A stretch of 58,113 nt of DNA, counting the filler, from Catajapyx aquilonaris (Eukaryota), in the NCBI GenBank assembly GCA_000934665.2. It is 3 parts of 3 records of this genome, joined end to end, with 100 filler letters (N's around TTAATTAATTAA, not from the genome) between each part and the next. Parts side by side here need not be neighbours in the genome. Positions count along the whole stretch, not along the records: positions 19,456 to 38,740 come from JYFJ02006491.1; 2 more parts are not named here. One strand, given 5' to 3'. Below the pieces are notes generated by a model that was given only the letters and a program-made list of their open reading frames with translations, was not told the DNA's origin and did no database searches. Shown piece after piece: positions 25,507-36,981 of this stretch. A program made the translations under genes and the position numbers. Within the stretch, counting starts at the first letter, position 1, and each line of letters opens with the position of its first letter.

Positions 25507-26214
25507 GCTGGGTGAGTGTGTTAGCATGGGCTCCTGCAAATTATAATTTAGCCCAAGAAGCTTTTGATATAATTCCTCTTCAGTTTTATCAGAGTGAGCA
25601 ATTCTGACTCATAGCTGCTCAGATTCGGCAATAATTTGATATCCTAAGAGGAAATTTAGTGCACCCTATTCACTCAAGTTGGCATCCTAGGTCAAATTGA
25701 TAATAATGGTTTGAAGATGCTCATGCAGGAATGCCTAGTTAACTCCAGAACTTAAATGAGATTTCCACCAAGCTTATTTGTGCAGACATTTGGCACCCTC
25801 GATGTAGGGAAGCACTTAATGATATAGATGCTGACTGTACAGTCATAAAGTATCCACTTTGAAAAATAAATATGCAGATGTTGGTTACTTTATAGCAGTG
25901 GAAATAGTGTCAAAGTTCTTCAGCTGTGGAAAAAGACACGATTAAGAGTTATAGGCAAATCAAAATTTGTAGGTTAAATCACAGGTGGGAGTGCTAAGTA
26001 ATGATTTTACATCTCTAGTTAGTAGCATTCAGTGTGAAAATCTAAGTGTTTTCCTGATCCCTTGCAGATTTATAAGTTCAGCTGCAGTTAGTGGTCATCT
26101 ACATGTCTTTCATTTAGGGATTCTGAAACAACATGTTTTTTTTTTTTTTTTAATAATTATGATAGCCATCCAAAAAATGCCACAGTATTTCACTCATGAC
26201 ATTGTACTTTCTAG

Positions 26215-26289
26215 AGAGGAAGGAGTCAACATCCACAGAGAAGAAGAAAAAGAAAGGCAAGAAATCCAGGAAGCGAAATTCAACTGAAA
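26215..26289 (+). CDS. RPS19BP1: AROS/RPS19BP1 homologue, internal basic exon (RKESTSTEKKKKKGKKSRKRNSTE)
   Basis: Acceptor tactttctag|, donor A|gtagga, phase 1/1. A 73-nt intron leads to the next exon in frame. The first (ATG) exon was not located. Confidence 0.65.
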
Positions 26290-26362
26290 GTAGGAAAATT
26301 AGTGGAATCCCTTGTAACTGAGCTTCGTTTACAGTTTCTATACTGTTTGTTCTTGTTTCCAG

Positions 26363-26508
26363 GAAGCGTTGGCATACGGAACAAGAAAGTAAATTCTGGT
26401 TTGGCAGCGTATTTGTTGCAGCATCAAAAGGAAGACAAAACTGAAGAAAATGTACAAGCTCTTCTTCGTTTGTCATCGAGCTCTCTTAGCAAGCATACTG
26501 CAGAAACG
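26363..26508 (+). CDS. RPS19BP1: AROS/RPS19BP1 homologue, middle exon (NSGLAAYLLQHQKEDKTEENVQALLRLSSSSLSKHTAET)
   Basis: Acceptor cttgtttccag|, donor ACG|gtgaac, ends in phase 0. Resembles the SALDEYRK..DHL..NLKFL segment of human AROS as I recall it. Confidence 0.75.
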
Positions 26509-26995
26509 GTGAACCTCTTTTGCTTCCTTTATTGTAGTTTGCAAAAGACTCGAAGGCCCATATACATATTTTCGAACACCAAGTTGAGAGGGGGTTAACC
26601 CCCTGTTCATCTACATAATGGCAATTCAATCCCATTTTGGGGGTCAAGTTGGGGTTAAGAGCATCTGGAAGTGGTGGCCTGAATCGAGTTGGAAAAAAGT
26701 GCTTTAGAGCTTCTGGAGTTTAAGGCTGGGTGGCAAGGTATTAGCTACCTCTTATAGGGATGGGTCTTAAGACAGGGACACTCCATAAGGTGTATGATGC
26801 CATTTCTCCCTGTAAAAAGTCAGATATGGTTCCAGGGTCGAATGGGGTCCTAGCCTACATTTTGCAAACCCATGTAAAAAATCGTCCTTATTTTTAATTG
26901 AATTTTGGTGTTTTTTGTTTGAAGAAATACATATTAGTTTTTGAGCCATGATTGATCTAAGATCCTAATAATTATACGGTATCGTATTGCCCTCT

Positions 26996-27766
26996 TAGTC
27001 TGGGCCCTAAGCGCAAAAATCAGGCCTAACCTTGCATTTTGGGATAAGAAGGTGCCACTTGGCACATATGTTCCTCAGGCCTATAGGAGCAATTCCAGAG
27101 TTGCAGGCAACTGGTCGGCCCCTTAGGTCACGAGTTATGCGGTGTTGCCAACATGGCCGGGGATGACCTGAGCGTTTTTAACGTTGCATTTTGTGATAAG
27201 AAGGTGCCGCTTGGCACATAATTATGTTCCCTAGGCCTGTAGGAGTCGTTTGAGACATGGCGGCACTTGATCGGCTCCTTAGGTCAGGAGTTATGCGGTG
27301 TTGCCAACCTGGTCAGGAACCTAAGCATAACCGCATAACTCGTGATCTAAGGGGCAAATCAGGTGCCACCAACTCTCAAATGGAACCTCTAGGCCTGGGG
27401 AACATTCTTGCCAAAATCCCAAAATGCAAAGTTAAAAATGGTTCAAAACGCTTAGGTCCAGGACCAGGTTGGCAACACCGCATAACTCCTGACCTAAGGA
27501 GCCGATCAAGTGCCGCCATGTCTCAAATGACTCCTACAGGCCTAGGGAACATATGTGCCAAGCGGCACCTTCTTATCACAAAATGCAACGTTAAAAACGC
27601 TCAGGTCATCCCCGGCCATGTTGGCAACACCGCATAACTCGTGACCTAAGGGGCCGACCAGTTGCCTGCAACTCTGGAATTGCTCCTATAGGCCTAAGGA
27701 ACATATGTGCCAAGTGGCACCTTCTTATCCCAAAATGCAAGGTTAAGACGCTTAGGGCCCGGACTA
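26996..27766. mobile_element. Foldback element with ~300-bp near-perfect arms built from ~150-bp subrepeats
   Basis: TAGTC(T/C)GGGCCCTAAGCG termini; 27029-27314 is the reverse complement of 27462-27742. Confidence 0.9.
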
Positions 27767-28657
27767 TCTGACGTCACTGTTGTCCAAAGATCGGTGCAGA
27801 GGCAGGAATGCACCCGGGTTGCTTTGTTCCTTTGTTTGTTGCCTAACAACGAAATTGAACGACCACGAGGCAACGGCCTGTTGACGTTACTGTTGTCCTT
27901 GGTTAAGCAGGAGTGGGCATGCACTTCTTAGACCATGCCCCCATTTTCCCGCCAATTTCAGAGTGACTTTTTAACCCCCAATTACACTAGTCAACAAAAT
28001 TGAACTTTTTTTTCTGGCACATGGACTTGAATGTGAAATTCTTATTGTATTTTTTGCGCTGATTTCAAATATGTTTACCAATTTCTTCTATCACCCACAG
28101 TTTTTGAGTAATCACCATTTTATTGTAGCAATGAACTTCCTTCAATGTAGCCTATATGTAGCTTTTCACCCAATATGTCCGGGCAGCCTTGCATTCCCCT
28201 CTCTGCCCAGAGCCATAAGAAAAGGTCTGGCATAAGGACTGTCCGAAATGACTTGAAACTATAACCGCCCTCCGTTGGGAACCTCCCCCTCCTCAAGCAC
28301 CTAGGTGGACCAAGGCGTTGCAGCAGAACAAGCTCCTCTGGATATTGAAAGTTTGGATTGAAATCAAGGTCCCTGCTATACCTCATGTGAGGTCTGCACT
28401 ACCCATTATTATTATACAGGATGTTTCAAGTATATTAGTCCTTTTAGTTGCATAATAGGAAATTTCACTCAAAGCTGTTCTTTTTTTGTAGCTTGTTGTG
28501 CTCCGATCCAGGTGCCCTATTCTATAGCAACTGGTATATTCGACCACCTGGGAGTAATATGCACCTAATCAGGCACAACAACCTACACAAAAGCAACGAC
28601 TACAGTCGATATTAGTGATAACTAAAAACGACCCACAAACTTGGAACACCCTTTATA

Positions 28658-29076
28658 CAGGGGAAACTGATAGTACTCGCAAAAGTAATATAGGGATGTA
28701 CAATTAGTTTTGGGCGCCATTGCATAGTTAATGCGTACGGCGCCATCAAAGTTTCGTGACGTCACATCTGTTCCGCCAGCTTCTAGGAAGCAAAAGTCAG
28801 CTCGAGGGGCTCCGAACAATCCAGCTTGGGTCCTTACACATCGTCCATGTGCATTGTGCAATAGGTTATCAGATCCCATCAGAAAAGAATCTGGGTACGA
28901 CACCCGTGCGCTTTGTCGTTTTTGCCTCATATTTTATCATCCAGCCCTCTACACTTTAAAGGAGCCATACACAATAACTACGCAACAGAGCCAAAAACTA
29001 ATGGCATATTCCTATATTAGCTTTGCGAGTACTATCAGTCTACCTGGCGATTGTACGCGAGTTTCCCTTTACCCTG
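28658..29076. mobile_element. Tc1/mariner-type MITE (same family as 29579-31146)
   Basis: TA-CAGGG...CCCTG-TA; inverted homology with 29579-29925. Confidence 0.75.
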
Positions 29077-29927
29077 TATACTGTACACTGGGGTTGCGCA
29101 ATGTAAGTGTCACGTCAATAGCTGGCTAGGCATGAACCTATGATTGAATGCATCCACATAATAAACAACAAGTGTAGAGTTACTCAACTCTGACCCTGGA
29201 ACCCAAGCCAACATTACTGGAAATACTGGGAATAAACAACATAATACATTGTAGGATGTCCCTGTTCATCAGATGCATTTGCATGAAGTCATACCAAACT
29301 TGATCACAAGTTTCAACCTCCTCCAGGAGCTCCAAAACCCTTCTTCCAACTTGACACTGTGGAGTATTGTGTAATCTTGTCAATCCTTTTAGTGATCTGA
29401 CTCAACCTTGTGGCATGAGATTGAACTTCCATTATGTATATAAGCATGGAATCAACCCCTTCTCAACCCGGTGTCAACCCTGATCCCTCATTTGAAAATC
29501 TGCTATCCAAATGATCCTGAAAAAGTTCCAAGTTAATGTGTAGGAGAGATAAGAGTGTCAGGTGTGTCAAGGGTTGTACAGGGTGAAGGGAAACTCGCGG
29601 ACAATCACCAGGTAAACTAATACTAGTAGTACTCACAAAACTAATATAGGGATGTGCAATTAGTTTTTGGCTCCGTTCAGTAGATAATGCGTACGGCGCC
29701 TTTAAACTGTAGAGGGCTGGATTGTAAAATATGAGGTGAAAACTACCAAGTGCATGGGTGTCGTACCCGGATTCTTACTCTGACGGGATTTTATCACCTA
29801 TTGCACATAGACGATTCATTAGGTGACCAAGGCTGGATTGTTCGGAGGCCCTCGAGCTGACTTTTGCTTCTTTGAAACTGGCGGAACGGATGTGACATCA
29901 CGAAACTTTGATGACGCCATATGCATT

Positions 29928-31027
29928 TTATTTATTTATTTATTTATTTATTCAATTATCCTGTTAAAGAGCAGGGCTCTTGTAGGGGAACACCACCACC
30001 TATACATTGGAAAACTCAATTCGTTTGGCAACATTTACAAAAAAATTATGTACATTATACAGGGTGGACCAACTTCAAGTGTCGTTTTATAACGGCTATT
30101 AATAGAAGCGCTTTACGATTGACGTAGCAGCGACGTGTAAAATGGCCCACTTCGGCGCCATCGAAAATATTGGCTGCCCTATTGGCAGCTAATATTTTCG
30201 ATGGTGTCGAAGTGGGACATTTTACATGTCACTGCTATGTCATCGGAAAATCACTTCTATTAATCGCCGTTATAAAACGACACTTGAAGTTGGTCCACCC
30301 TGTATAGCAAATGTAAACTTGGTGTACAAAAAGCATACATTATTTTATTTGGGGGAAACCCTCGGAAGAGTAGACAAAAACTGAGTACGAGGAGTGCGAA
30401 AGTAGAGACAATCATATAAGTAAGTGATCCATGGGTAGGTCCAAGTTACACCACTCACAACGCGAGTCGGAAAACTCGATTTTAGTACCTTTGAGCCATA
30501 GGTACCTAGAGCCATTACGCAGGCTAACCCAGGTTCGGAGTGTCGCCAGCGGTATGTTATATGACCAATACTGTTCCTTTCCAATGGGGCTTTTTATTTC
30601 GTTATAGCTCGCATATGATTTCGATCCCTCTAGTAGATTCCGGACATGAGTCCCAAAAATGACTGGCTAGTTTGTTCTGAATTTGATTCAGTGTTACCCC
30701 ACTTATGTCACTCATATCAATACCAGCCGATGATGTAATCGACCCAAATAACTCAAACCAGTTACAAGAGGAAGACTGACAATGGGGCCTGGATGATTTG
30801 GCATACATGTGTGCTGCTCGCAACAATGATTTCTCAATCCCTACCTCCAGCCTACTGTAATATTTAATTGTCTGTCTTATTAAGGTCACCGCAAGGTGGG
30901 GAGTGTCAGTTTCTAGTCTCACAAAAAAACCGGCTGCTTGTTTTGGTAGACCTAGGAATTTTTTCAGGAAATAATTTTGAATGCTTTCTAATTCGCCAAT
31001 GTATTGAAGACCTCATATGGGGAAATG
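29928..31027 (-). mobile_element. 5'-truncated LINE (post-RT region) with (AAAT)n tail
   Basis: TSD TGATGACGCCA(T/A)ATGCATT; reads LESIQNYFLKKFLGLPK...VRLET on the minus strand. Confidence 0.7.
30060..30302. mobile_element. Palindromic Tc1/mariner-type MITE nested in the LINE
   Basis: TA-CAGGGTGGACCAACTTCAAGTGTCG...CGACACTTGAAGTTGGTCCACCCTG-TA. Confidence 0.9.
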
Positions 31028-31331
31028 ATGACGCCAAATGCATTAACTACGCAACGGCGCCCAAAACAACTTGCACATCCCTATATTAGTTTTACGAGTA
31101 CTATAAGTCTACCTGGCGATTGTCTGTGAGATTCCCTTCGCCCTGCATACAATGGTGTATCAAATTAAAAGCTTAAATAAAAGTGCAATAAAAATTTTAA
31201 GCTTGGTGTTTCGGAAGCCATTCAAGAGGAACAATTACAGGCTCAATATGGTGGTCATAATAACTTAAGGCAGTTTATTGATAGTGGAGTGTGAGTCAGA
31301 CTGGTGGTGCGTCTTCAGACATGTACTATGA

Positions 31332-31333
31332 TA

Positions 31334-31410
<77 letters not shown>

Positions 31411-31667
31411 GATACCCTGTGATAAGCCTCCTTGGGCTTTTTAGGGGATCATCTTTTTAATTAACCGTCTTTAATCATTGCCTGCGCTGTGATGGATTTT
31501 GATTGCGGGAGGAAACGGGAGGACCCCGAGAAAACCCACGCGAACACGGAGAGAACCCATCGAAACTCTATCCACATAAGTATCCTCTGTCCGATCCGGG
31601 GATCGAACTCGGGACCTTACAGATGTGGAAGGCTGCGGCGCTAACCACTCCGCCACCGTGTCGCCCT
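31332..31667 (-). mobile_element. SINE family D inserted into a mariner relic
   Basis: TSD AGACATGTACTATGA; the downstream flank reads EQRAVICFLW (mariner HTH). Confidence 0.9.
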
Positions 31668-32376
31668 AGACATGTACTATGAGGGAGCAGAGAGCTGTTA
31701 TTTGTTTTTGTGGATGAAAAGGACAAAACCCAGAGAAATTTATTGGTGAATGCAGGGGCAAAATGTGGATCTGCCCTGTAACTCACAGTTGCATGCCTTT
31801 GGCTGGTGTAAAAATTTTCAGAAGGATGAGAGCAGTCTGACAGACATGCCAGGACAGGCAAATCAATCTGACACTTGGAATTTTTTTACATCATGCGTAC
31901 ACACATAACTGCAATGTTGCATAAAAAGTTTATAAAAGCTTTCTGTTTTGTTTTGGTGCTTGCCTGAATGCTCATTGGCATCTTTATGCAGCTGTTGTCA
32001 TGTTGACAAACTGCCTGAAGTTATGAGAACCATACAAATCCAACTGTTTCTCTCAACCCAAATGGCAGGTTTAGAAATTTCATTGTAATTTTTCTTGTCA
32101 ATAAGAGAACTCCACTCCTCCTTAATGCATTTCTGAAGGCACTGTGCCATCTTTATACAGCTGATATGTGAATCACACTCCACCTATTAACGATATGAGC
32201 ACAATATGAGTTTGACTCTCTTGAAATGCATCCCAAACAATGGGGTTTTAAATTTTTTATTATTGCACTTTTAACATTTTTATTTCATCTACTCTTGCAC
32301 TTTGAGCCTGTATGATTGGTACCAAGCCATTTAGCAGATGCATAATGGTGTCCCTGAAAATCATGTTCTGCACATA

Positions 32377-32681
32377 ATATAATCCTTGGGTAGTGCCTGA
32401 CCCTATAGAGGGTATGTGGCACGAACCTTGAGCGAATCGCCCGGGCCCACGGGCAGGATGACAGGAGGGGATGTGCAAGGTGCAGTGCAATGTCTTAAAC
32501 ATGGCCATTTTTAGTGAACTCCCCCGGGTGGTTTAGTCAGTTGGAAATACCACCCGAGACGAAGCCAGAGGTGACCCTGAACTCTGCACGAGATGAAGGG
32601 GGTGTCCCCGGGTTGGGATCGAACCCGGGACCTTAACATCCGTGGGCGCATACGTTACCGCAGCACCACTCCGCCTCCCCT
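32377..32681 (-). mobile_element. SINE family C
   Basis: Core identity with the other copies; TSD ATGTTCTGCA(C/T)ATA. Confidence 0.85.
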
Positions 32682-32838
32682 ATGTTCTGCATATAGTGTT
32701 TTGTTGTTAAGACTGGCAGGAAAGAGGCCATCAACCCAATGAGGACATTTTTAGTGATCAGTTGACCAATTCAACTGGCCAATAGCTGAGCAGTTGGTGT
32801 ACCAATGACTTCACAGTTGAGAAAAATGTTAGATACTA

Positions 32839-33078
32839 TACTGCTTACAGCCTCACTTCTCAAAAAGTAGGTGGCGACCTCTGCCCCTCCAGACACCCAA
32901 AGTGATCTGATTGTTGGAACAGAGGGCGGGGGGACCAATCATCTCACTTAGGGAATGGTGGGTACAAGGAGATCAAAAGACAAATCGGGTTTGAAATCCT
33001 ACCATGTATGGCTTAAACACAGGGGTCGAAATATTTAGGCCATGCATATCTTTTTGAGAAGTTAGGCTGTGAGCAGTA
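32839..33078. mobile_element. MITE with TIR TACTGCTTACAGCCT.ACTTCTCAAAAAG
   Basis: Inverted termini read directly from the sequence. Confidence 0.7.
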
Positions 33079-33081
33079 TAA

Positions 33082-33262
33082 AGGCCCATACACACAGGCC
33101 GTCGACGGTTTTGGTCTTTGGTCACGTCAACGCCGCGGACCAATCAGAGCGGGCCCTCACAGTAACCATGACGCGTTGTTACCGTGAGGGCCCACTCTGA
33201 TTGGTCCGCGGTGTCGATGCGACCAAAGACCAAAACCGTCGACGGCCTGTGTGTATAGGCCT
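33082..33262. mobile_element. Palindromic PIF/Harbinger-type MITE
   Basis: AGGCC(C/T)ATACACACAGGCCGTCGACGG arms; TAA TSD. Confidence 0.88.
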
Positions 33263-33554
33263 TAAAGCAAAGTAAGTTGGTTGACGGCAGAATTCAAAAC
33301 CCTTCACCAGAGTTCAGCAGAGTTTCACACAGGGGAGAACTTGACAGTGGGGATAAACTATGACTTGCTTCCCCTTCCTGTCTAGGTATGGTGCAGCCTT
33401 TATTTTCACAGCATAGTTGAAACAGGATGTCAATGAGGACTGAGCACAAGAGTGTTTAAACAAGAGTTGCCATGCATAATTTTATATTAATACTGGTACT
33501 TCCTTAAATCTGTTACTCTTTGATTGTTAATAGCAGTGCCTTTATCTCCCATAG

Positions 33555-33680
33555 ATATTGAATCATCAGAGGGGGCAGCTGTCAAAGGACCGAGTCAAAG
33601 CAGAGAAATTAGATGAGAAGACTGTGTTCACAAAAGAGGATTTTGAGAAATTTGAGAAAGAATATTTTGTCAAAGAGTGA
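33555..33680 (+). CDS. RPS19BP1: AROS/RPS19BP1 homologue, last coding exon
   Basis: Acceptor tctcccatag| in phase 0. Reads ILNHQRGQLSKDRVKAEKLDEKTVFTKEDFEKFEKEYFVKE*, matching the AROS C-terminal signature ILRQNRG...TVFTEEDFQKFQQEYF. Confidence 0.9.
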   Translation: MLNHQRGQLSKDRVKAEKLDEKTVFTKEDFEKFEKEYFVKE

Positions 33681-33706
33681 GAGGAACTGTGGACTTATAG
33701 GACTCC

Positions 33707-33952
33707 ATGTTTATTGGTCATGATATTTTAGTTGGCAGAATAATTCTTTTCCTTTGCATTTCCTTTTATCTGTGGTTTATATTTTCCTTATTTGCTGCAC
33801 CCTTTGTGACGGAAGAGGACATTTTGTATTCTTTCTTACCATCTCCACAAAGGCTTGTGGTAATTCCATGCTGTATTGGAGTTATTTTAGTCGGCTCTCT
33901 AGTTGCCTACACTTGCTGGGTTCTTTATCAGTCGAAAGGTTTAACTAAGTAA
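33707..33952 (+). CDS. DPM2: Dolichol-phosphate mannose synthase regulatory subunit DPM2-like, 81 aa, two TM helices, intronless
   Basis: Aligns without gaps to human DPM2 as recalled: M..G.D..VG, hydrophobic TM1, PF, IP...G, TM2, basic K..TK tail. Size is typical for the family. Confidence 0.8.
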   Translation: MFIGHDILVGRIILFLCISFYLWFIFSLFAAPFVTEEDILYSFLPSPQRLVVIPCCIGVILVGSLVAYTCWVLYQSKGLTK

Positions 33953-33957
33953 CAAGA

Positions 33958-34641
33958 ATGAATAATTGGTTAGTAATTGGTGTCTCTGGGGTCACTTGTG
34001 GAGGAAAGACCACCATAAGCAGACTGTTGCATCGTGCCTTCCCTTGGGCCCATGTGATTAATCAGGACAAGTATTTTCTACCACCCGATAGTGACCGCCA
34101 TGTATGGGTTACAGAAATTAATCACCAAAATTGGGAGATTCTTTCTAGCATGGACATGGATGCTATGTGGAATGACATCAAATGCCTGCTCAATTCCACT
34201 CCAGACTGCAAGACCCAGTCAGATGTCATTTGGCCTAATATGGCAGGAAGCATTGATCATATCAATCTGCCACACTCACTGTTGGAAGAGTTGAAAAGGG
34301 ATTTTTCACATTGCCCAATTTTGATACTTGATGGACTGCTCATTTGTAACTATAAACCAATTTCAGATTTGTGCCATTTGAAATATTACATTACTGTCAG
34401 CAGAGAAGTATGTGAGGCTAGACGCAATGAGAGAACATATGACCCTCCTGATCCACCAAAATATTTTGAGAAAGTAGTATGGCCAATGTTTGAAAAGCAT
34501 AGAGATGAAGTGAAAGCTACTGTTGCAGGTGTTGAGTACTGTGATGGAGAACAGAAAATGGAGCAAGTCTTCCACAAGGTGTTGCAGGAAGTGACAACCA
34601 CCCTCAAGTCACGTTGTGGGTGTATGTCGGCGAAGAAGTAA
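33958..34641 (+). CDS. NMRK1: Nicotinamide riboside kinase (NRK/NMRK family), 227 aa, intronless
   Basis: VIGVSGVTCGGKTT P-loop, INQDKYF, ILILDG, C.ARR..RTYDPPDPPKYFEKVVWPMF. Confidence 0.93.
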   Translation: MNNWLVIGVSGVTCGGKTTISRLLHRAFPWAHVINQDKYFLPPDSDRHVWVTEINHQNWEILSSMDMDAMWNDIKCLLNSTPDCKTQSDVIWPNMAGSIDHINLPHSLLEELKRDFSHCPILILDGLLICNYKPISDLCHLKYYITVSREVCEARRNERTYDPPDPPKYFEKVVWPMFEKHRDEVKATVAGVEYCDGEQKMEQVFHKVLQEVTTTLKSRCGCMSAKK

Positions 34642-35870
34642 ATGGCTGGAATTGGTTTGCCAATTTTCATTCCAAACCACATGATGTCTAAAGAATAATG
34701 TTCATAACATGAACTGCAATATAATTACTTGTTTTCTTGTATAGTCATTGTGTTATAGTTTTTTGGAAAATTTATGATTTGTCTTTGGGTACTTGTAGTT
34801 GACATCTACCAATCAGCATGAGCTATGCCTCTCCTTGTCTTGGCCTAGTTTGCCTAGACTGGTTTATGGTGTTTGTGGTTGAGGCCAACAACCAGCTTAA
34901 TGAAGCCTGCAAGGACCCAGCTTAAGCTGTTAAGTTTTGATAGGATGGAAAAATAGTGATTATATTAGAAATGCTTCTCCTGTCTATCATGGGGAAATTC
35001 TGAGCAGTTCAGTGACACCATTGATTGATGGATGATTTATTGCAACACAATATGTTAGTACATAAATCAGGTGATTTGCTTGCAGGTTCAGCAGGCAACC
35101 TACAAATTCCGACGTTTGACTGTTCCCCCTTGACTTTTCTTGCTCCTTTCAGTCAGCTCACTGGGAAAGAATTTCATGTCAAACATGTTAAACTGGTTAG
35201 TGTGAAGGCAAAATCTTGCAGTCTGTTGCAAAAATGTAAGAAAGTAGAATATATTTTTGGACTCTCAACTCATTGCAAAGAAAATGTACTCTCCCCTCAC
35301 TTTCCAGAGCAGTACTGAGAAGCTAGATAATTTCTTCTGCTTCTCTGTCTTGAATAATTATGGTTTGTGAGTTGAAAGGTAAAATAGTGACACTGTAAAA
35401 TAAGTATGGACCTTCGTCACCAGGTAATATTGCTTATTCCAATTTACATGAGTTCTATCGTCCAACTGCTGCATGAAAGTGTTGAAAATCTGGAGGTACA
35501 CGTCGGATGTCACTTGAAGTGAAGAATACGGGTCCAACAATGCGACGACGTGAAATCCCACACCACACGCCAACTTTCTCAGAATGGGGCGGTTCCTCGT
35601 GTATCGCGTGGGGATTTTCGCTTGCCCAACAACGGGTGTTTTGGGAGTTTTACTCATGGATCAAGCTGTCCCCTTAAAATTTCATCGCCCTACATGAAGT
35701 GGTTTACTAGTTATGCACCATTTTGCCGGTCCGGGAAGTAGTGGGACACCCTGTACTCTTCAGCAACTGTAATAGTGGCAAGAGTCACTGTGCGACTAAA
35801 TTTACTTGCAACGGAAAAATTGTTATTAGTATTGGTCTACTTAGCACCAAGTGCTTTATATCAACAAACT

Positions 35871-36172
35871 CACCGAAGCAGTTTGGTGGAGTGGATAAGG
35901 TGTTCGACTGCTAATCGGGAGGTCCTGGGTTCGAGCCCTGGGGCTGGCAATCCTAACCGTGGTTTTCTGTGCTTTCCCACGGTCCCCCCAGAAGAATTCC
36001 GGGATTGCTTCCTAAATAATAGGCCACAGCCGCTTCCTTCCATCCCTATCCTATCCCAAAAGCGAAGTAAATGAAAGCAAAGAGTTCCAGTCAAAACAAA
36101 ATTGGGATGAACTCTCCCCCTTAAGAGCCACCGGCTGATAATGGGGTATGAATTATGAATATATTATTATTA
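35871..36172 (+). mobile_element. SINE family A, full length
   Basis: tRNA-like head (cgactGCTaatcg, GGTTCGAGCC); TSD TTATATCAACAAACT. Confidence 0.9.
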
Positions 36173-36258
36173 TTATATCAACAAACTATAGAAGGGTTAT
36201 ATGAACTTATAGGTTATAGGAAGGTGGATAGAGGAAGGTTATATATTGTGTATTATGG

Positions 36259-36841
36259 GTGACAAGCATTGGTGAGGAATGTTACTGTTCCCCAAACATG
36301 ATAACAGTGAGGGATTATGATCAGCAAGCTAGGAGATTGTGTGACAAGATAAAGGATACAAAGGGAAATAAATTGCTTGATCTACTAGAACAACGATCAT
36401 TGCAAGTAGTAAGTGGCACGTTTAAGGGGGATCGACTGGGTAACTATACTTCCTGCAGTGAACTGGGAAATTCTGTGATTGACTATGGGATTGTATCACC
36501 CGAATTATGGGATTGTGTAATGGATTTTCGAGTGGTAAATGTTGTGGGATCGGATCACTTTCCTATTATGCTGTCCCTAATAGAAGTAAGTACGAGGATT
36601 GATGTAAATCATAATGGTGAATTGGTGACATATGTAAAAATACCTGATGGAGGATTGGACTACCTGGTAAAAGTTCTGGATGAAACATTGGAACAGGTAG
36701 ACAGTGAGTTGGGCGTGCAAGAACTGGCCAAATTGTTAATTACGGAAATAAAAAATATTCTCCAAGAGGAAGATCTATTGAGAACACGGGATGATAGTGC
36801 GGTGGGAGTGTGGCTGGGAAATAAACAACCTTTCCATGTTC
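36259..36841 (+). pseudogene. LINE ORF2 apurinic endonuclease fragment
   Basis: G.KLL.L, GNYT, SVIDY and SDHFP motifs; truncated by the piggyBac-like insertion. Confidence 0.85.
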
Positions 36842-36845
36842 TTAA

Positions 36846-36981
36846 CCCTAACAAGACAGGTGGTTTTTCGCGTTTTTGCAAGTATCTGCAAAAAATTTGC
36901 TTTCGTTGGGGCTTGGGGGACGAGACTTGAAAACACTACTGAATAAGATCGTACAGTGTCCAGGCTTATAATAATAATAAT

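What the first reader, a model, noticed from the sequence alone, without database searches (positions are those of the whole stretch)
33555..34641. Operon-like tricistron in an animal: AROS/RPS19BP1, DPM2 and nicotinamide riboside kinase in one terminal exon
Seen: the AROS stop (TGA 33678-33680) is followed by a 26-nt spacer, a complete DPM2-like ORF (33707-33952), a 5-nt spacer (CAAGA) and a complete NRK ORF (33958-34641), all on the same strand. Both spacers are out of frame, so readthrough cannot fuse the proteins. I found no AATAAA between the ORFs, and the spacers are too short to hold a terminator plus promoter. Known: animal dicistronic mRNAs exist (e.g. in Drosophila) and often pair small housekeeping ORFs; three unrelated conserved proteins in one exon is much rarer. 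Inference: a single polycistronic mRNA, or a pre-mRNA resolved by alternative or trans-splicing. I cannot say whether this arrangement has been described.
Basis: partly seen in the sequence, partly recalled or inferred. Interest (0 to 1): 0.92.

Follow-up and report, generated by a model that had tools for sequence, protein, structure and literature searches.

The report
Conserved three-gene insect-type messenger RNA locus
The last exon of a small ribosome/sirtuin-linked gene (AROS) also carries complete genes for DPM2 and nicotinamide riboside kinase, a packing shared by several insect lineages; it is a real but not unprecedented multi-gene animal transcript, and its DPM2-kinase half is already catalogued in fruit flies.

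Summary
Window 33555-34641 (+) carries the AROS C-terminal exon, an 81-aa DPM2 ORF and a 227-aa nicotinamide riboside kinase (NRK) ORF. Each lies in a different frame, with 26-nt and 5-nt spacers. All three pass family tests.

The order AROS>DPM2>NRK on one strand recurs in 14 of 48 environmental loci fetched with an NRK profile, and DPM2>NRK in 23 of 48. About six lineages carry it, including an attine ant, a mayfly-like and an aphid-like one. Six short contigs carry an uninterrupted AROS ORF plus both downstream ORFs. A sister genomic contig and the window have an intron at the same AROS position, so these contigs look like spliced tricistronic mRNAs.

The DPM2-NRK half is already known. FlyBase lists CG42456-CG12016 as dicistronic (PMC4528330, File S1), and it was reported in 2008 as a conserved 81-aa uORF (PMC2276209). 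AROS as first cistron appeared in none of my literature searches.

The translation route I propose, leaky scanning plus reinitiation, is inferred.

Verdict: a new member of a known kind, of moderate interest. The scan has already noted other polycistronic units in this genome.

The parts
26215..26289 (+). Inferred internal AROS coding exon (Lys/Arg-rich part). AG acceptor at 26213-26214, GT donor at 26290-26291.
   Evidence: The sequence shows the splice sites. There is a weak collinear hit to my AROS profile (positions 12-41, E 0.31). The phase joins in frame to the next exon (worked out). Inferred, not shown by RNA.
26363..26508 (+). The acceptor AG ends at 26362 and the donor GT starts at 26509.
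   Evidence: Sequence. It reads in frame from 26365. Weak collinear profile hit (positions 51-89, E 0.04). It ends in phase 0, matching the start of the last exon.
26509..33554 (+). Last AROS intron (7,046 nt), full of repeats.
   Evidence: Splice sites. Repeats. L013 has a 57-nt GT-AG intron at the same position of the protein.
33555..33680 (+). AROS C-terminal coding part (41 codons plus TGA). This is the start of the terminal exon.
   Evidence: Pfam AROS 36.2 bits against cut-off 27, profile 88-129/129. Translation.
33681..33706 (+). Spacer 1 (26 nt) between the AROS stop and the DPM2 ATG.
   Evidence: The DPM2 start has T at -3, a weak context.
33707..33952 (+). DPM2 ORF, 81 aa. A divergent member of the family.
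   Evidence: Pfam PF07297 30.9 bits against cut-off 27.3, profile 2-73/75. It aligns over its full length with 15 DPM2 ORFs from related loci at 19-32% identity.
33953..33957 (+). Spacer 2 (5 nt, caaga) between the DPM2 stop and the NRK ATG.
   Evidence: The NRK start has A at -3, a strong context.
33958..34641 (+). Nicotinamide riboside kinase ORF, 227 aa.
   Evidence: Matches human NRK1 chains 2qg6/2p0e at E 1.5e-33. One search returned 118 homologues, the best a named NRK1 of Schistocerca at 47% identity. The P-loop and 6 of 8 named active-site residues are identical, and 2 are conservative changes.
34718..34723 (+). AATATA, the first poly(A)-signal-like hexamer after the NRK stop. Candidate only.
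   Evidence: No AATAAA or ATTAAA occurs in 33501-36200. The 3' end is not mapped.

Best explanation
The window holds the 3' part of a conserved insect-type tricistronic gene. The AROS gene is spliced from at least three coding exons: 26215-26289, 26363-26508 and 33555 onward. A first exon was not found.

The terminal exon continues, with no processing signal, through a complete DPM2 gene and a complete nicotinamide riboside kinase gene. The primary product is most likely one capped, spliced, polyadenylated mRNA carrying all three ORFs. Shorter alternative transcripts may exist beside it.

All three proteins would be made from this mRNA by scanning ribosomes. Some ribosomes start at AROS and, after its stop, resume scanning over the 26-nt spacer. 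Others pass the few upstream AUGs. The DPM2 AUG is in a weak context and is partly skipped, so ribosomes reach the strong NRK AUG 5 nt after the DPM2 stop.

What is shown:
- the ORFs, their families and the splice-site logic;
- conservation of order and tight spacing in about six lineages;
- the existence of the DPM2-NRK dicistronic mRNA in Drosophila.

What is inferred:
- that this organism makes the tricistronic mRNA;
- the translation route.
For: (1) Anatomy. Three family-confirmed ORFs lie in three frames with 26-nt and 5-nt spacers.

(2) Conservation (profiles at E<=0.01 over 48 loci fetched).
- DPM2 lies on the NRK strand and upstream of NRK in 23 of 48 loci.
- AROS lies upstream of that DPM2 in 14 of 48. 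No locus has AROS without DPM2.
- Pfam confirms 20 of 20 tested DPM2 ORFs above cut-off. It confirms 6 of 8 tested full-length AROS ORFs above cut-off; L013 scores 17.0 bits and L017 23.2 bits, both below.

(3) Lineages.
- The L004 NRK is identical to the Atta colombica protein.
- The L015 NRK is 78% identical to a mayfly NRK.
- L023/L027/L031 resemble, by eye, the aphid peptide aligned in PMC2276209.
- L009/L013/L018 form a well-supported clade.

(4) Spacers are tight in the window and 9 loci. Values are spacer 1/spacer 2:
- window 26/5
- L009 20/-1
- L013 14/13
- L018 20/19
- L015 25/-11
- L023, L027 and L031 -1/3
- L040 3/3
- L022 77/11

(5) mRNA nature.
- L009, L018, L023, L027, L031 and L040 carry an uninterrupted AROS ORF.
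- The window and L013, the genomic sister of L009/L018, have an intron at the same AROS position.
- L018, L019 and L020 end in A-runs.

(6) Print.
- CG42456-CG12016 is listed as dicistronic, with 93 nt between stop and start.
- CG12016 is the NMRK1 orthologue.
- Its 81-aa conserved uORF has EST support across insects.

(7) Translation.
- A purine sits at -3 in 6 of 16 DPM2 starts against 14 of 16 NRK starts.
- ATG triplets between the AROS ATG and the NRK ATG number 39 against 87.1 expected in 7 contigs. In the window the figures are 5 against 13.4 (P 0.0055). NRK bodies show 75 against 64.3.
- Human RPS19BP1 has its first downstream AUG beyond the CDS, and that ORF shows ribosome footprints (PMC7397870, passages read).
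Against: - No RNA of this organism was seen.
- That the environmental contigs are transcripts is inferred from intron absence and A-runs, not from their records.
- The ATG depletion largely disappears under a codon-preserving shuffle: AROS 19 against 25.3, DPM2 31 against 42.3, with one ORF (L030 DPM2, P 0.024) of 23 at P<0.05. It may therefore reflect the low methionine content of these families. It is absent in L027 (P 0.34) and L031 (P 0.16).
- AROS starts have a purine at -3 in 6 of 7 contigs, so they are not obviously leaky.
- In the ant loci, the DPM2-NRK spacer is 247-301 nt and holds many ATGs (L004, L006, L047); in the two Atta-type loci (L004, L047) it also holds an AATAAA. The unit is therefore not tight everywhere.
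- In Drosophila, CG12016 also has a monocistronic transcript from an alternative promoter, and AROS is not listed as part of that unit.
- 25 of 48 loci show neither upstream gene. Many of these are short or distant, but L008, L026 and L028 have more than 1 kb upstream.
Confidence: 0.7

Rival explanations
1. The three ORFs share DNA but not a working mRNA. DPM2 and NRK would be expressed mainly from an internal promoter in the 7-kb last intron, or from alternative 5' exons spliced in just upstream. This would give a DPM2-NRK dicistronic or an NRK monocistronic mRNA. AROS-containing transcripts would then yield only AROS.
For: - In Drosophila, CG12016 has an alternative monocistronic transcript from an alternative promoter.
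- L019, L020 and L030 begin about 40 nt before DPM2 with no AROS, although their DPM2 relatives L017, L029 and L040 have AROS upstream.
- The FlyBase paper says only 45 of 159 dicistronic loci lack any monocistronic alternative.
- An AG lies 7 nt before the DPM2 ATG and another 1 nt before the NRK ATG.
Against: - Six contigs from relatives carry all three ORFs with AROS spliced.
- Spacers of -1 to 26 nt are kept tight across lineages. That fits translational linkage and would not be needed if the promoters were separate.
- The sequences before the two AGs are purine-rich, not pyrimidine tracts.
- This rival can coexist with the main reading. The confidence given is for it being the only productive route.
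Confidence: 0.17
2. It is an operon in the nematode or tunicate sense. A polycistronic pre-mRNA would be cut into three monocistronic mRNAs by spliced-leader trans-splicing at AG sites just before each downstream ATG.
For: - The very short spacers resemble tunicate-type operons (recalled knowledge).
- AG dinucleotides lie just upstream of both downstream ATGs.
- L019 and L030 share an identical 18-nt stretch at their extreme 5' ends while their coding parts have diverged. That could be a leader in that unknown lineage.
Against: - Relatives have stop and start overlapping (TAATG in L023/L027/L031, TGATG in L009, 11-nt and 23-nt overlaps in L015, L029 and L017). Cutting there would truncate the upstream ORF.
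- No poly(A) signal lies upstream of either downstream cistron.
- The named nearest relatives are insects, a group not known to use spliced leaders (recalled).
- Assembled contigs keep the three ORFs together.
- L020 carries extra sequence 5' of the shared stretch.
Confidence: 0.04
3. The DPM2 and NRK ORFs here are a non-functional or decaying copy, for example a retrocopy of a polycistronic mRNA inserted after an AROS exon. The working genes would lie elsewhere in the genome.
For: - The window's DPM2 scores lowest of all DPM2 ORFs tested (30.9 bits against 30.1-71.7). It lacks the YYT motif that most relatives keep.
- DPM2 and NRK have no introns.
- The genome could not be searched for other copies.
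Against: - Both ORFs are intact and of full family length.
- NRK keeps the P-loop and all eight named active-site positions, six identical and two as Asp/Glu swaps.
- The AROS part is a spliced exon whose intron lies at the conserved position, so it is not part of a retrocopy.
- The intronless terminal-exon layout is the same in genomic contigs of other lineages: L013, L015 and L022.
Confidence: 0.04

Closest known systems
Drosophila melanogaster dicistronic locus CG42456-CG12016 (FlyBase; Crosby et al. 2015, PMC4528330, File S1 rows 252-253). It was first reported as an 81-aa conserved-peptide uORF of CG12016 by Hayden and Bosco 2008 (PMC2276209).
   Same: A small membrane-protein ORF sits directly upstream of the NMRK1 orthologue on one mRNA. 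CG12016 = NMRK1 comes from PMC8664455. The upstream ORF is 81 aa in both fly and window. It is conserved with EST support in aphid, silkworm, mosquitoes and tsetse. By eye, the fly peptide printed in the supplement has the DPM2 pattern.
   Different: - The fly spacer is 93 nt, against 5 nt here.
- The fly unit is listed as dicistronic, not as having more than two genes, so AROS is not part of it.
- Neither paper, in the parts I read, names the uORF as DPM2. The 2008 paper lists the function of CG12016 as unknown.
- I did not run the fly peptide through any tool.
The 7 tricistronic and 2 tetracistronic loci annotated in FlyBase r6.04 (PMC4528330, main-text passages read).
   Same: Processed insect mRNAs carry three or more separate conserved CDS. 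Small proteins are over-represented among them. Stop-to-start distances range from overlapping to a few hundred nt.
   Different: Of the four multi-gene sets I saw in File S1, three are marked as possible or probable tandem duplications. Here the three proteins are unrelated, and the trio is conserved across orders.
Silkworm tricistronic paralytic-peptide mRNA, translated by context-dependent scanning (PMC2978622; only the search listing and the start of the abstract were seen).
   Same: One insect mRNA yields three proteins, with start-codon context deciding which AUG is used.
   Different: The genes differ. I did not read the paper, so the details are not compared.
Human RPS19BP1 (AROS) mRNA with a translated ORF in its 3' UTR (Benitez-Cantos et al. 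2020, PMC7397870; passages read).
   Same: An AROS coding sequence with no or few internal AUGs lets scanning ribosomes reach an ORF downstream of the AROS stop.
   Different: The human downstream ORF is not described there as DPM2 or NRK. The authors treat most such ORFs as probably non-functional.
Spliced-leader-resolved operons of nematodes and tunicates (recalled, not read here).
   Same: Several unrelated genes are transcribed together with very short intercistronic gaps.
   Different: Those pre-mRNAs are cut into monocistronic mRNAs. Here the overlapping stop-start junctions in relatives and the lack of 3'-end signals argue for translation from the intact polycistronic mRNA.
Polycistronic nuclear genes of green algae, translated by leaky scanning (PMC7896298, PMC11892635; search listings and abstract starts only).
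   Same: Conserved, exclusively polycistronic nuclear transcripts, with leaky scanning as the proposed route.
   Different: A different kingdom and different genes. Not read beyond the abstracts.

Membership tests
AROS / RPS19BP1 (Pfam PF15684) | Match to the family profile above the curated cut-off. | tested here: met
   The last exon alone scores 36.2 bits against cut-off 27 and covers profile 88-129 of 129. The upstream exons give only weak collinear hits to my own profile (E 0.04 and 0.31). The first exon was not found.
DPM2 (Pfam PF07297) | Full-length match of a roughly 75-85-aa protein to the family profile above the cut-off. | tested here: met
   30.9 bits against cut-off 27.3, profile 2-73 of 75. 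It aligns end to end with 15 relatives. G10, P32 and P54 are invariant, but the YYT motif of most relatives is absent.
DPM2 (function) | Binds and stabilises the DPM1/DPM3 dolichol-phosphate-mannose synthase. | not testable with these tools
   No partner proteins from this genome are at hand, and no assay is possible.
Nicotinamide riboside kinase (NRK/NMRK) | Sequence relationship to solved NRK1 and to named NRK orthologues. | tested here: met
   Human NRK1 chains match at E 1.5e-33 and 9.5e-33 over residues 5-220. One search returned 118 homologues; every source name that assigns a function calls them nicotinamide(/nicotinate) riboside kinase. The generic Pfam kinase families score below their cut-offs.
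Nicotinamide riboside kinase (NRK/NMRK) | Active-site residues of human Nrk1 named in PMC1994991: Thr12, Lys16, Asp36, Asp56, Glu98, Arg129, Arg132, Tyr134. | tested here: met
   Read from the alignment against the passages. T13, K17, D37, R156, R159 and Y161 are identical. Asp56 is Glu60 here and Glu98 is Asp125. Both keep the carboxylate, and these are the majority residues of the arthropod alignment. Activity was not assayed.
Polycistronic mRNA in the FlyBase sense | Two or more separate conserved CDS on one strand within one transcription unit. | tested here: met
   The same order occurs in 14 of 48 related loci.
Polycistronic mRNA in the FlyBase sense | A processed mRNA that spans all the CDS. 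| tested here: inconclusive
For relatives, six contigs have spliced AROS plus DPM2 plus NRK, and L018 ends in an A-run. For fly DPM2-NRK, cDNA/EST support is in print.
Polycistronic mRNA in the FlyBase sense | Each cistron is translated from that mRNA. | not testable with these tools
   This needs Ribo-seq, proteomics or reporters. Only indirect signs exist, namely start contexts and ATG counts.
Spliced-leader-resolved operon | A 3'-end formation signal for the upstream gene and a trans-splice acceptor between cistrons. | tested here: not met
   No AATAAA or ATTAAA occurs in 33501-36200. AG dinucleotides are present but lack pyrimidine tracts. Relatives have overlapping stop and start codons.
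Spliced-leader-resolved operon | The organism uses a spliced leader. | not testable with these tools
   No genome is held and there are no reads.

The most novel reading that the evidence does not exclude
AROS-DPM2-NRK may be an ancient translationally coupled unit, dating at least to early winged insects. In it, the AUG-poor AROS coding sequence would act as a conserved leaky-scanning platform. That property would persist in human RPS19BP1, where a 3'-UTR ORF is translated.

The unit would tie the output of a SIRT1 activator and 40S-binding protein to that of the NAD+ salvage kinase that feeds sirtuins, so the ratio of the two is set on one mRNA.
Probability: 0.18. Interest if true: 0.7.

Novelty: new member of a known kind. 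Interest (0 to 1): 0.4.

Why it matters
Polycistronic mRNAs in animals are usually missed by automatic annotation. Here the DPM2 and NRK proteins of the window are absent from the protein collection I searched (best hit 47%), and one thrips gene model fuses DPM2 to NRK (P0033).

Knowing that AROS, DPM2 and NRK form one conserved unit has three uses:
- It corrects gene models across insects.
- It gives a well-conserved natural case, with tight spacers and one-base stop-start overlaps, for studying how eukaryotic ribosomes translate second and third cistrons.
- It raises a testable link between a sirtuin activator and NAD+ salvage.

It does not change the picture that insects have a few hundred such genes.

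Tried and rejected
Nothing was laid.
- Fused or longer DPM2 forms. The 'longer' search gave no hit among 76 candidates. This is weak evidence.
- Organism.
  - The UHRF1-exon search returned only two aphid proteins at 37-38%.
  - The NRK tree left the window unplaced, with 11 of 25 inner branches open.
  - The Atlas said only Arthropoda.
  - No genome is held.
- First AROS exon. Two pattern scans of 10-33.6 kb and 18.8-26.2 kb gave no convincing candidate. It may lie in the N gap.
- ATG depletion by codon-preserving shuffle was not significant overall.
- Earlier findings. Nothing was found near this place or by sequence.
- Literature.
  - DPM2 / NRK / dicistronic found 2 papers.
  - DPM2 + polycistronic found 7; the Tribolium paper cites DPM2 only in a reference.
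  - RPS19BP1 + polycistronic found 3.
  - 'active regulator of SIRT1' + NRK found 4.
  - CG42456 found 1.
  - None describes the trio, judged from listings and the passages read.
  - The five-term search was too loose to be a test.
- Minus strand under the ORFs. The 98-aa ORF 34389-34682 has no Pfam family.
Full report
**Observation**

On the + strand a 3' splice site (...cccatag|) opens an AROS-frame segment at 33555 that ends at TGA 33678-33680. After 26 nt an ATG opens an 81-codon ORF (33707-33952). After 5 more nt an ATG opens a 227-codon ORF (33958-34641). The three ORFs use the three different frames, so readthrough cannot fuse them.

There is no AATAAA or ATTAAA between them. There is none in the 1.5 kb after the last stop either, so that absence says little. 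The first variant hexamer is AATATA at 34718.

**Families**

- AROS: Pfam scores the 41-residue segment at 36.2 bits (cut-off 27), covering the last 42 positions of the AROS profile.
- DPM2: the 81-aa ORF scores 30.9 bits (cut-off 27.3) over nearly the whole DPM2 profile.
- NRK:
  - The 227-aa ORF falls below the cut-offs of the generic kinase families.
  - It matches the solved human NRK1 chains at E 1.5e-33.
  - It has 118 homologues; every source name that assigns a function calls them nicotinamide(/nicotinate) riboside kinase, the best a Schistocerca protein at 47%.
- NRK active site: of the eight residues named for human Nrk1 (PMC1994991, passages read), six are identical. Two are Asp/Glu exchanges that are also the majority state in arthropods.

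The window's own proteins are not in the protein collection I searched.

**Gene structure in the window**

Two upstream AROS exons can be placed from splice sites, matching phases and weak collinear profile hits: 26215-26289 and 26363-26508. The last intron is 7,046 nt and repeat-rich. I could not find the first, ATG-bearing exon. It may lie in the run of N near 19.4 kb.

A UHRF1-like gene lies upstream on the other strand.

**Relatives**

An NRK profile pulled 48 loci from metagenome contigs. I built profiles from some of these loci and searched all six frames of all 48 loci.

- DPM2 lies on the same strand and upstream of NRK in 23 of 48.
- AROS lies upstream of that DPM2 in 14 of 48.
- No locus has AROS without DPM2.
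- 25 of 48 show neither. Many of these are fragments or distant kinases, but L008, L026 and L028 have more than 1 kb of upstream sequence without them.

Because my profiles were built from some of the same loci, I checked with Pfam. 20 of 20 tested DPM2 ORFs pass the cut-off. 6 of 8 tested full-length AROS ORFs pass. L013 (17.0 bits, its ORF cut by an intron) and L017 (23.2 bits) do not. The C-terminal AROS pieces in L004, L006, L015, L022, L029 and L047 rest on my profile alone (E 7.7e-5 to 5.6e-13).

Several loci are near-duplicates: L010/L011, L004/L047 and L019/L020. I count about six lineages that carry the trio:
- the window;
- L009/L013/L018, with L022;
- L023/L027/L031;
- L015;
- L004/L047/L006;
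- L017/L029/L040.

Taxon hints:
- The L004 kinase is identical to the Atta colombica protein.
- The L015 kinase is 78% identical to a mayfly kinase.
- The L023-group DPM2 resembles, by eye, the aphid peptide printed in PMC2276209.

The NRK tree does not place the window.

**Spacing**

| Source | AROS stop to DPM2 ATG (nt) | DPM2 stop to NRK ATG (nt) |
|---|---|---|
| window | 26 | 5 |
| L009 | 20 | -1 (TGATG) |
| L013 | 14 | 13 |
| L018 | 20 | 19 |
| L015 | 25 | -11 |
| L023, L027, L031 | -1 (TAATG) | 3 |
| L040 | 3 | 3 |
| L022 | 77 | 11 |
| Ant loci (L004, L006, L047) | 70-79 | 247-301 (AATAAA inside in L004 and L047) |
| L029 | -11 | 83 |
| L017 | -23 | 318 |

The unit is tight in most lineages but not all.

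**Are these mRNAs?**

L009, L018, L023, L027, L031 and L040 are contigs of 1.1-1.6 kb with an uninterrupted AROS ORF followed by the other two ORFs. L013 groups with L009 and L018 in a well-supported clade. It has a 57-nt GT-AG intron exactly where the window has its 7-kb intron, before the residues ILxxx of the last exon. L015 and L022 likewise start their AROS part at an acceptor.

The simplest reading is that L009 and L018 are spliced transcripts and L013 is genomic. L018, L019 and L020 end in A-runs. This is inference; I did not use the records' descriptions.

**What is in print**

FlyBase r6.04 annotates 159 dicistronic pairs, 7 tricistronic and 2 tetracistronic loci (PMC4528330, passages read). 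Its File S1 lists CG42456 and CG12016 as one dicistronic unit. The file gives 93 nt between stop and start, marks CG42456 as 'di/polycistronic only', records an alternative monocistronic transcript for CG12016, and does not flag the unit as having more than two genes.

CG12016 is the NMRK1 orthologue (PMC8664455). Hayden and Bosco (PMC2276209) had reported an 81-aa conserved-peptide uORF on the CG12016 transcript. It is conserved to aphids, with EST-based alignments from silkworm, mosquitoes and tsetse, and function listed as unknown. By eye the printed fly peptide has the DPM2 pattern; I did not run it through a tool. So the DPM2-NRK half of the finding is already catalogued.

My searches for the trio, or for AROS in any polycistronic context, found nothing relevant (listings, plus passages).

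One passage bears on the question. In a human RPS19BP1 transcript the first AUG after the start lies beyond the CDS, and that downstream ORF shows ribosome footprints. It is one of 76 such mRNAs (PMC7397870).

Earlier notes of this scan report other di- and tricistronic units in this same genome, and an overlapping AROS/NRK gene in another genome. I did not test those.

**How it probably works**

I take the locus to give one spliced tricistronic mRNA, translated by scanning ribosomes through a mix of reinitiation and leaky scanning. Three observations fit this.

- Stop-start gaps of -1 to 26 nt are conserved.
- The DPM2 start context is weak and the NRK context strong. A purine sits at -3 in 6 of 16 DPM2 starts against 14 of 16 NRK starts. 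In the window it is T against A.
- Few ATGs lie ahead of the NRK start. Across seven full contigs there are 39 against 87.1 expected by base shuffling, significant in 5 of 7. In the window there are 5 against 13.4 (P 0.0055). NRK bodies show 75 against 64.3.

Three observations weaken it.

- Under a shuffle that keeps codons, the depletion is small (AROS 19 against 25.3, DPM2 31 against 42.3). It may only reflect methionine-poor proteins.
- AROS starts have a purine at -3 in 6 of 7 contigs.
- L027 and L031 show no depletion.

The translation route is therefore a best guess, at about even odds.

**Rivals**

- Separate transcripts from an internal promoter or alternative 5' exons probably coexist with the tricistronic mRNA, as in the fly and as L019, L020 and L030 suggest. 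As the only productive route this is unlikely, given the tricistronic contigs and the conserved tight spacing.
- Spliced-leader resolution is unlikely, because relatives have overlapping stop and start codons and there are no 3'-end signals.
- A dead copy is unlikely, given intact ORFs, kept active-site residues and the conserved intron position.

**Limits**

- No RNA from this organism was examined.
- The organism is known only as an arthropod with insect-like relatives.
- The genome could not be searched for paralogues.
- I could not look at named insect genomes directly.

**Verdict**

The polycistronic reading is supported by relatives and by the literature for two of the three genes. This is a new member of a known kind, an insect polycistronic gene, with AROS as an apparently undescribed first cistron. 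Interest is moderate.

Noticed in passing
window 13449-13916 (-) and 18147-18776 (-): These are exons of a UHRF1-like gene on the opposite strand, upstream of AROS. One carries an SRA domain (107.4 bits). The other carries a tandem tudor domain (74 bits) plus a PHD finger (37.5 bits). The gene may share a promoter region with AROS.
   Followed up: partly
L019 13-30 and L030 9-26: An identical 18-nt stretch sits at the extreme 5' end of two DPM2-NRK contigs whose coding parts have diverged. It is absent from the other 46 loci. It may be a spliced leader or a conserved 5' exon in that unknown lineage. L020 has two mismatches in it and extra 5' sequence.
   Followed up: partly
L004 875-1167, L047 2688-2988, L006 440-686: In the ant loci (the L004 kinase is identical to that of Atta colombica), the DPM2-NRK gap is 247-301 nt with many ATGs; in L004 and L047 it also holds an AATAAA. 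In ants the kinase may therefore have become a separate transcript.
   Followed up: no
L015 836-863: In the mayfly-like locus the AROS stop TAA is followed at once by GTAAGT, a consensus donor, and by a branch-point-like ctaac before the DPM2 ATG. I could not tell whether this is chance or an alternative splice.
   Followed up: no
P0033 (thrips gene model, 286 aa): A deposited Frankliniella fusca model fuses DPM2 and NRK into one protein (Pfam PF07297 + PF13238). It is probably an annotation artefact of the same dicistronic layout.
   Followed up: partly
window 36232-36930 (+): An endonuclease/reverse-transcriptase fragment (Exo_endo_phos_2, 22.3 bits, below cut-off). It looks like a decayed LINE-type element downstream of the tricistron.
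   Followed up: no
window 27027-27745, 24524-24998, 31331-31409, 25373-25449: The last AROS intron and its upstream flank hold long inverted repeats: 194-nt arms at 99% identity and 197-nt arms at 92%. They also hold an (ATA)n tract of about 27 units and a (TAGGG)n tract of about 16 units.
   Followed up: no
window about 19.35-19.46 kb and about 38.74-38.78 kb: Runs of N (247 in the window in all). The first lies where the missing first AROS exon or its promoter could be.
   Followed up: no
window about 14.6, 18.9-19.1, 31.5 and 32.6 kb: The same short translated motif (...GIEPGT...) recurs in ORF listings at four places. This suggests copies of one small repeat element.
   Followed up: no
PMC7397870, Fig. 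2D text: A human RPS19BP1 transcript has no AUG after its start until beyond the CDS, and the downstream ORF shows ribosome footprints. This parallels the AUG-poor AROS cistron here.
   Followed up: partly
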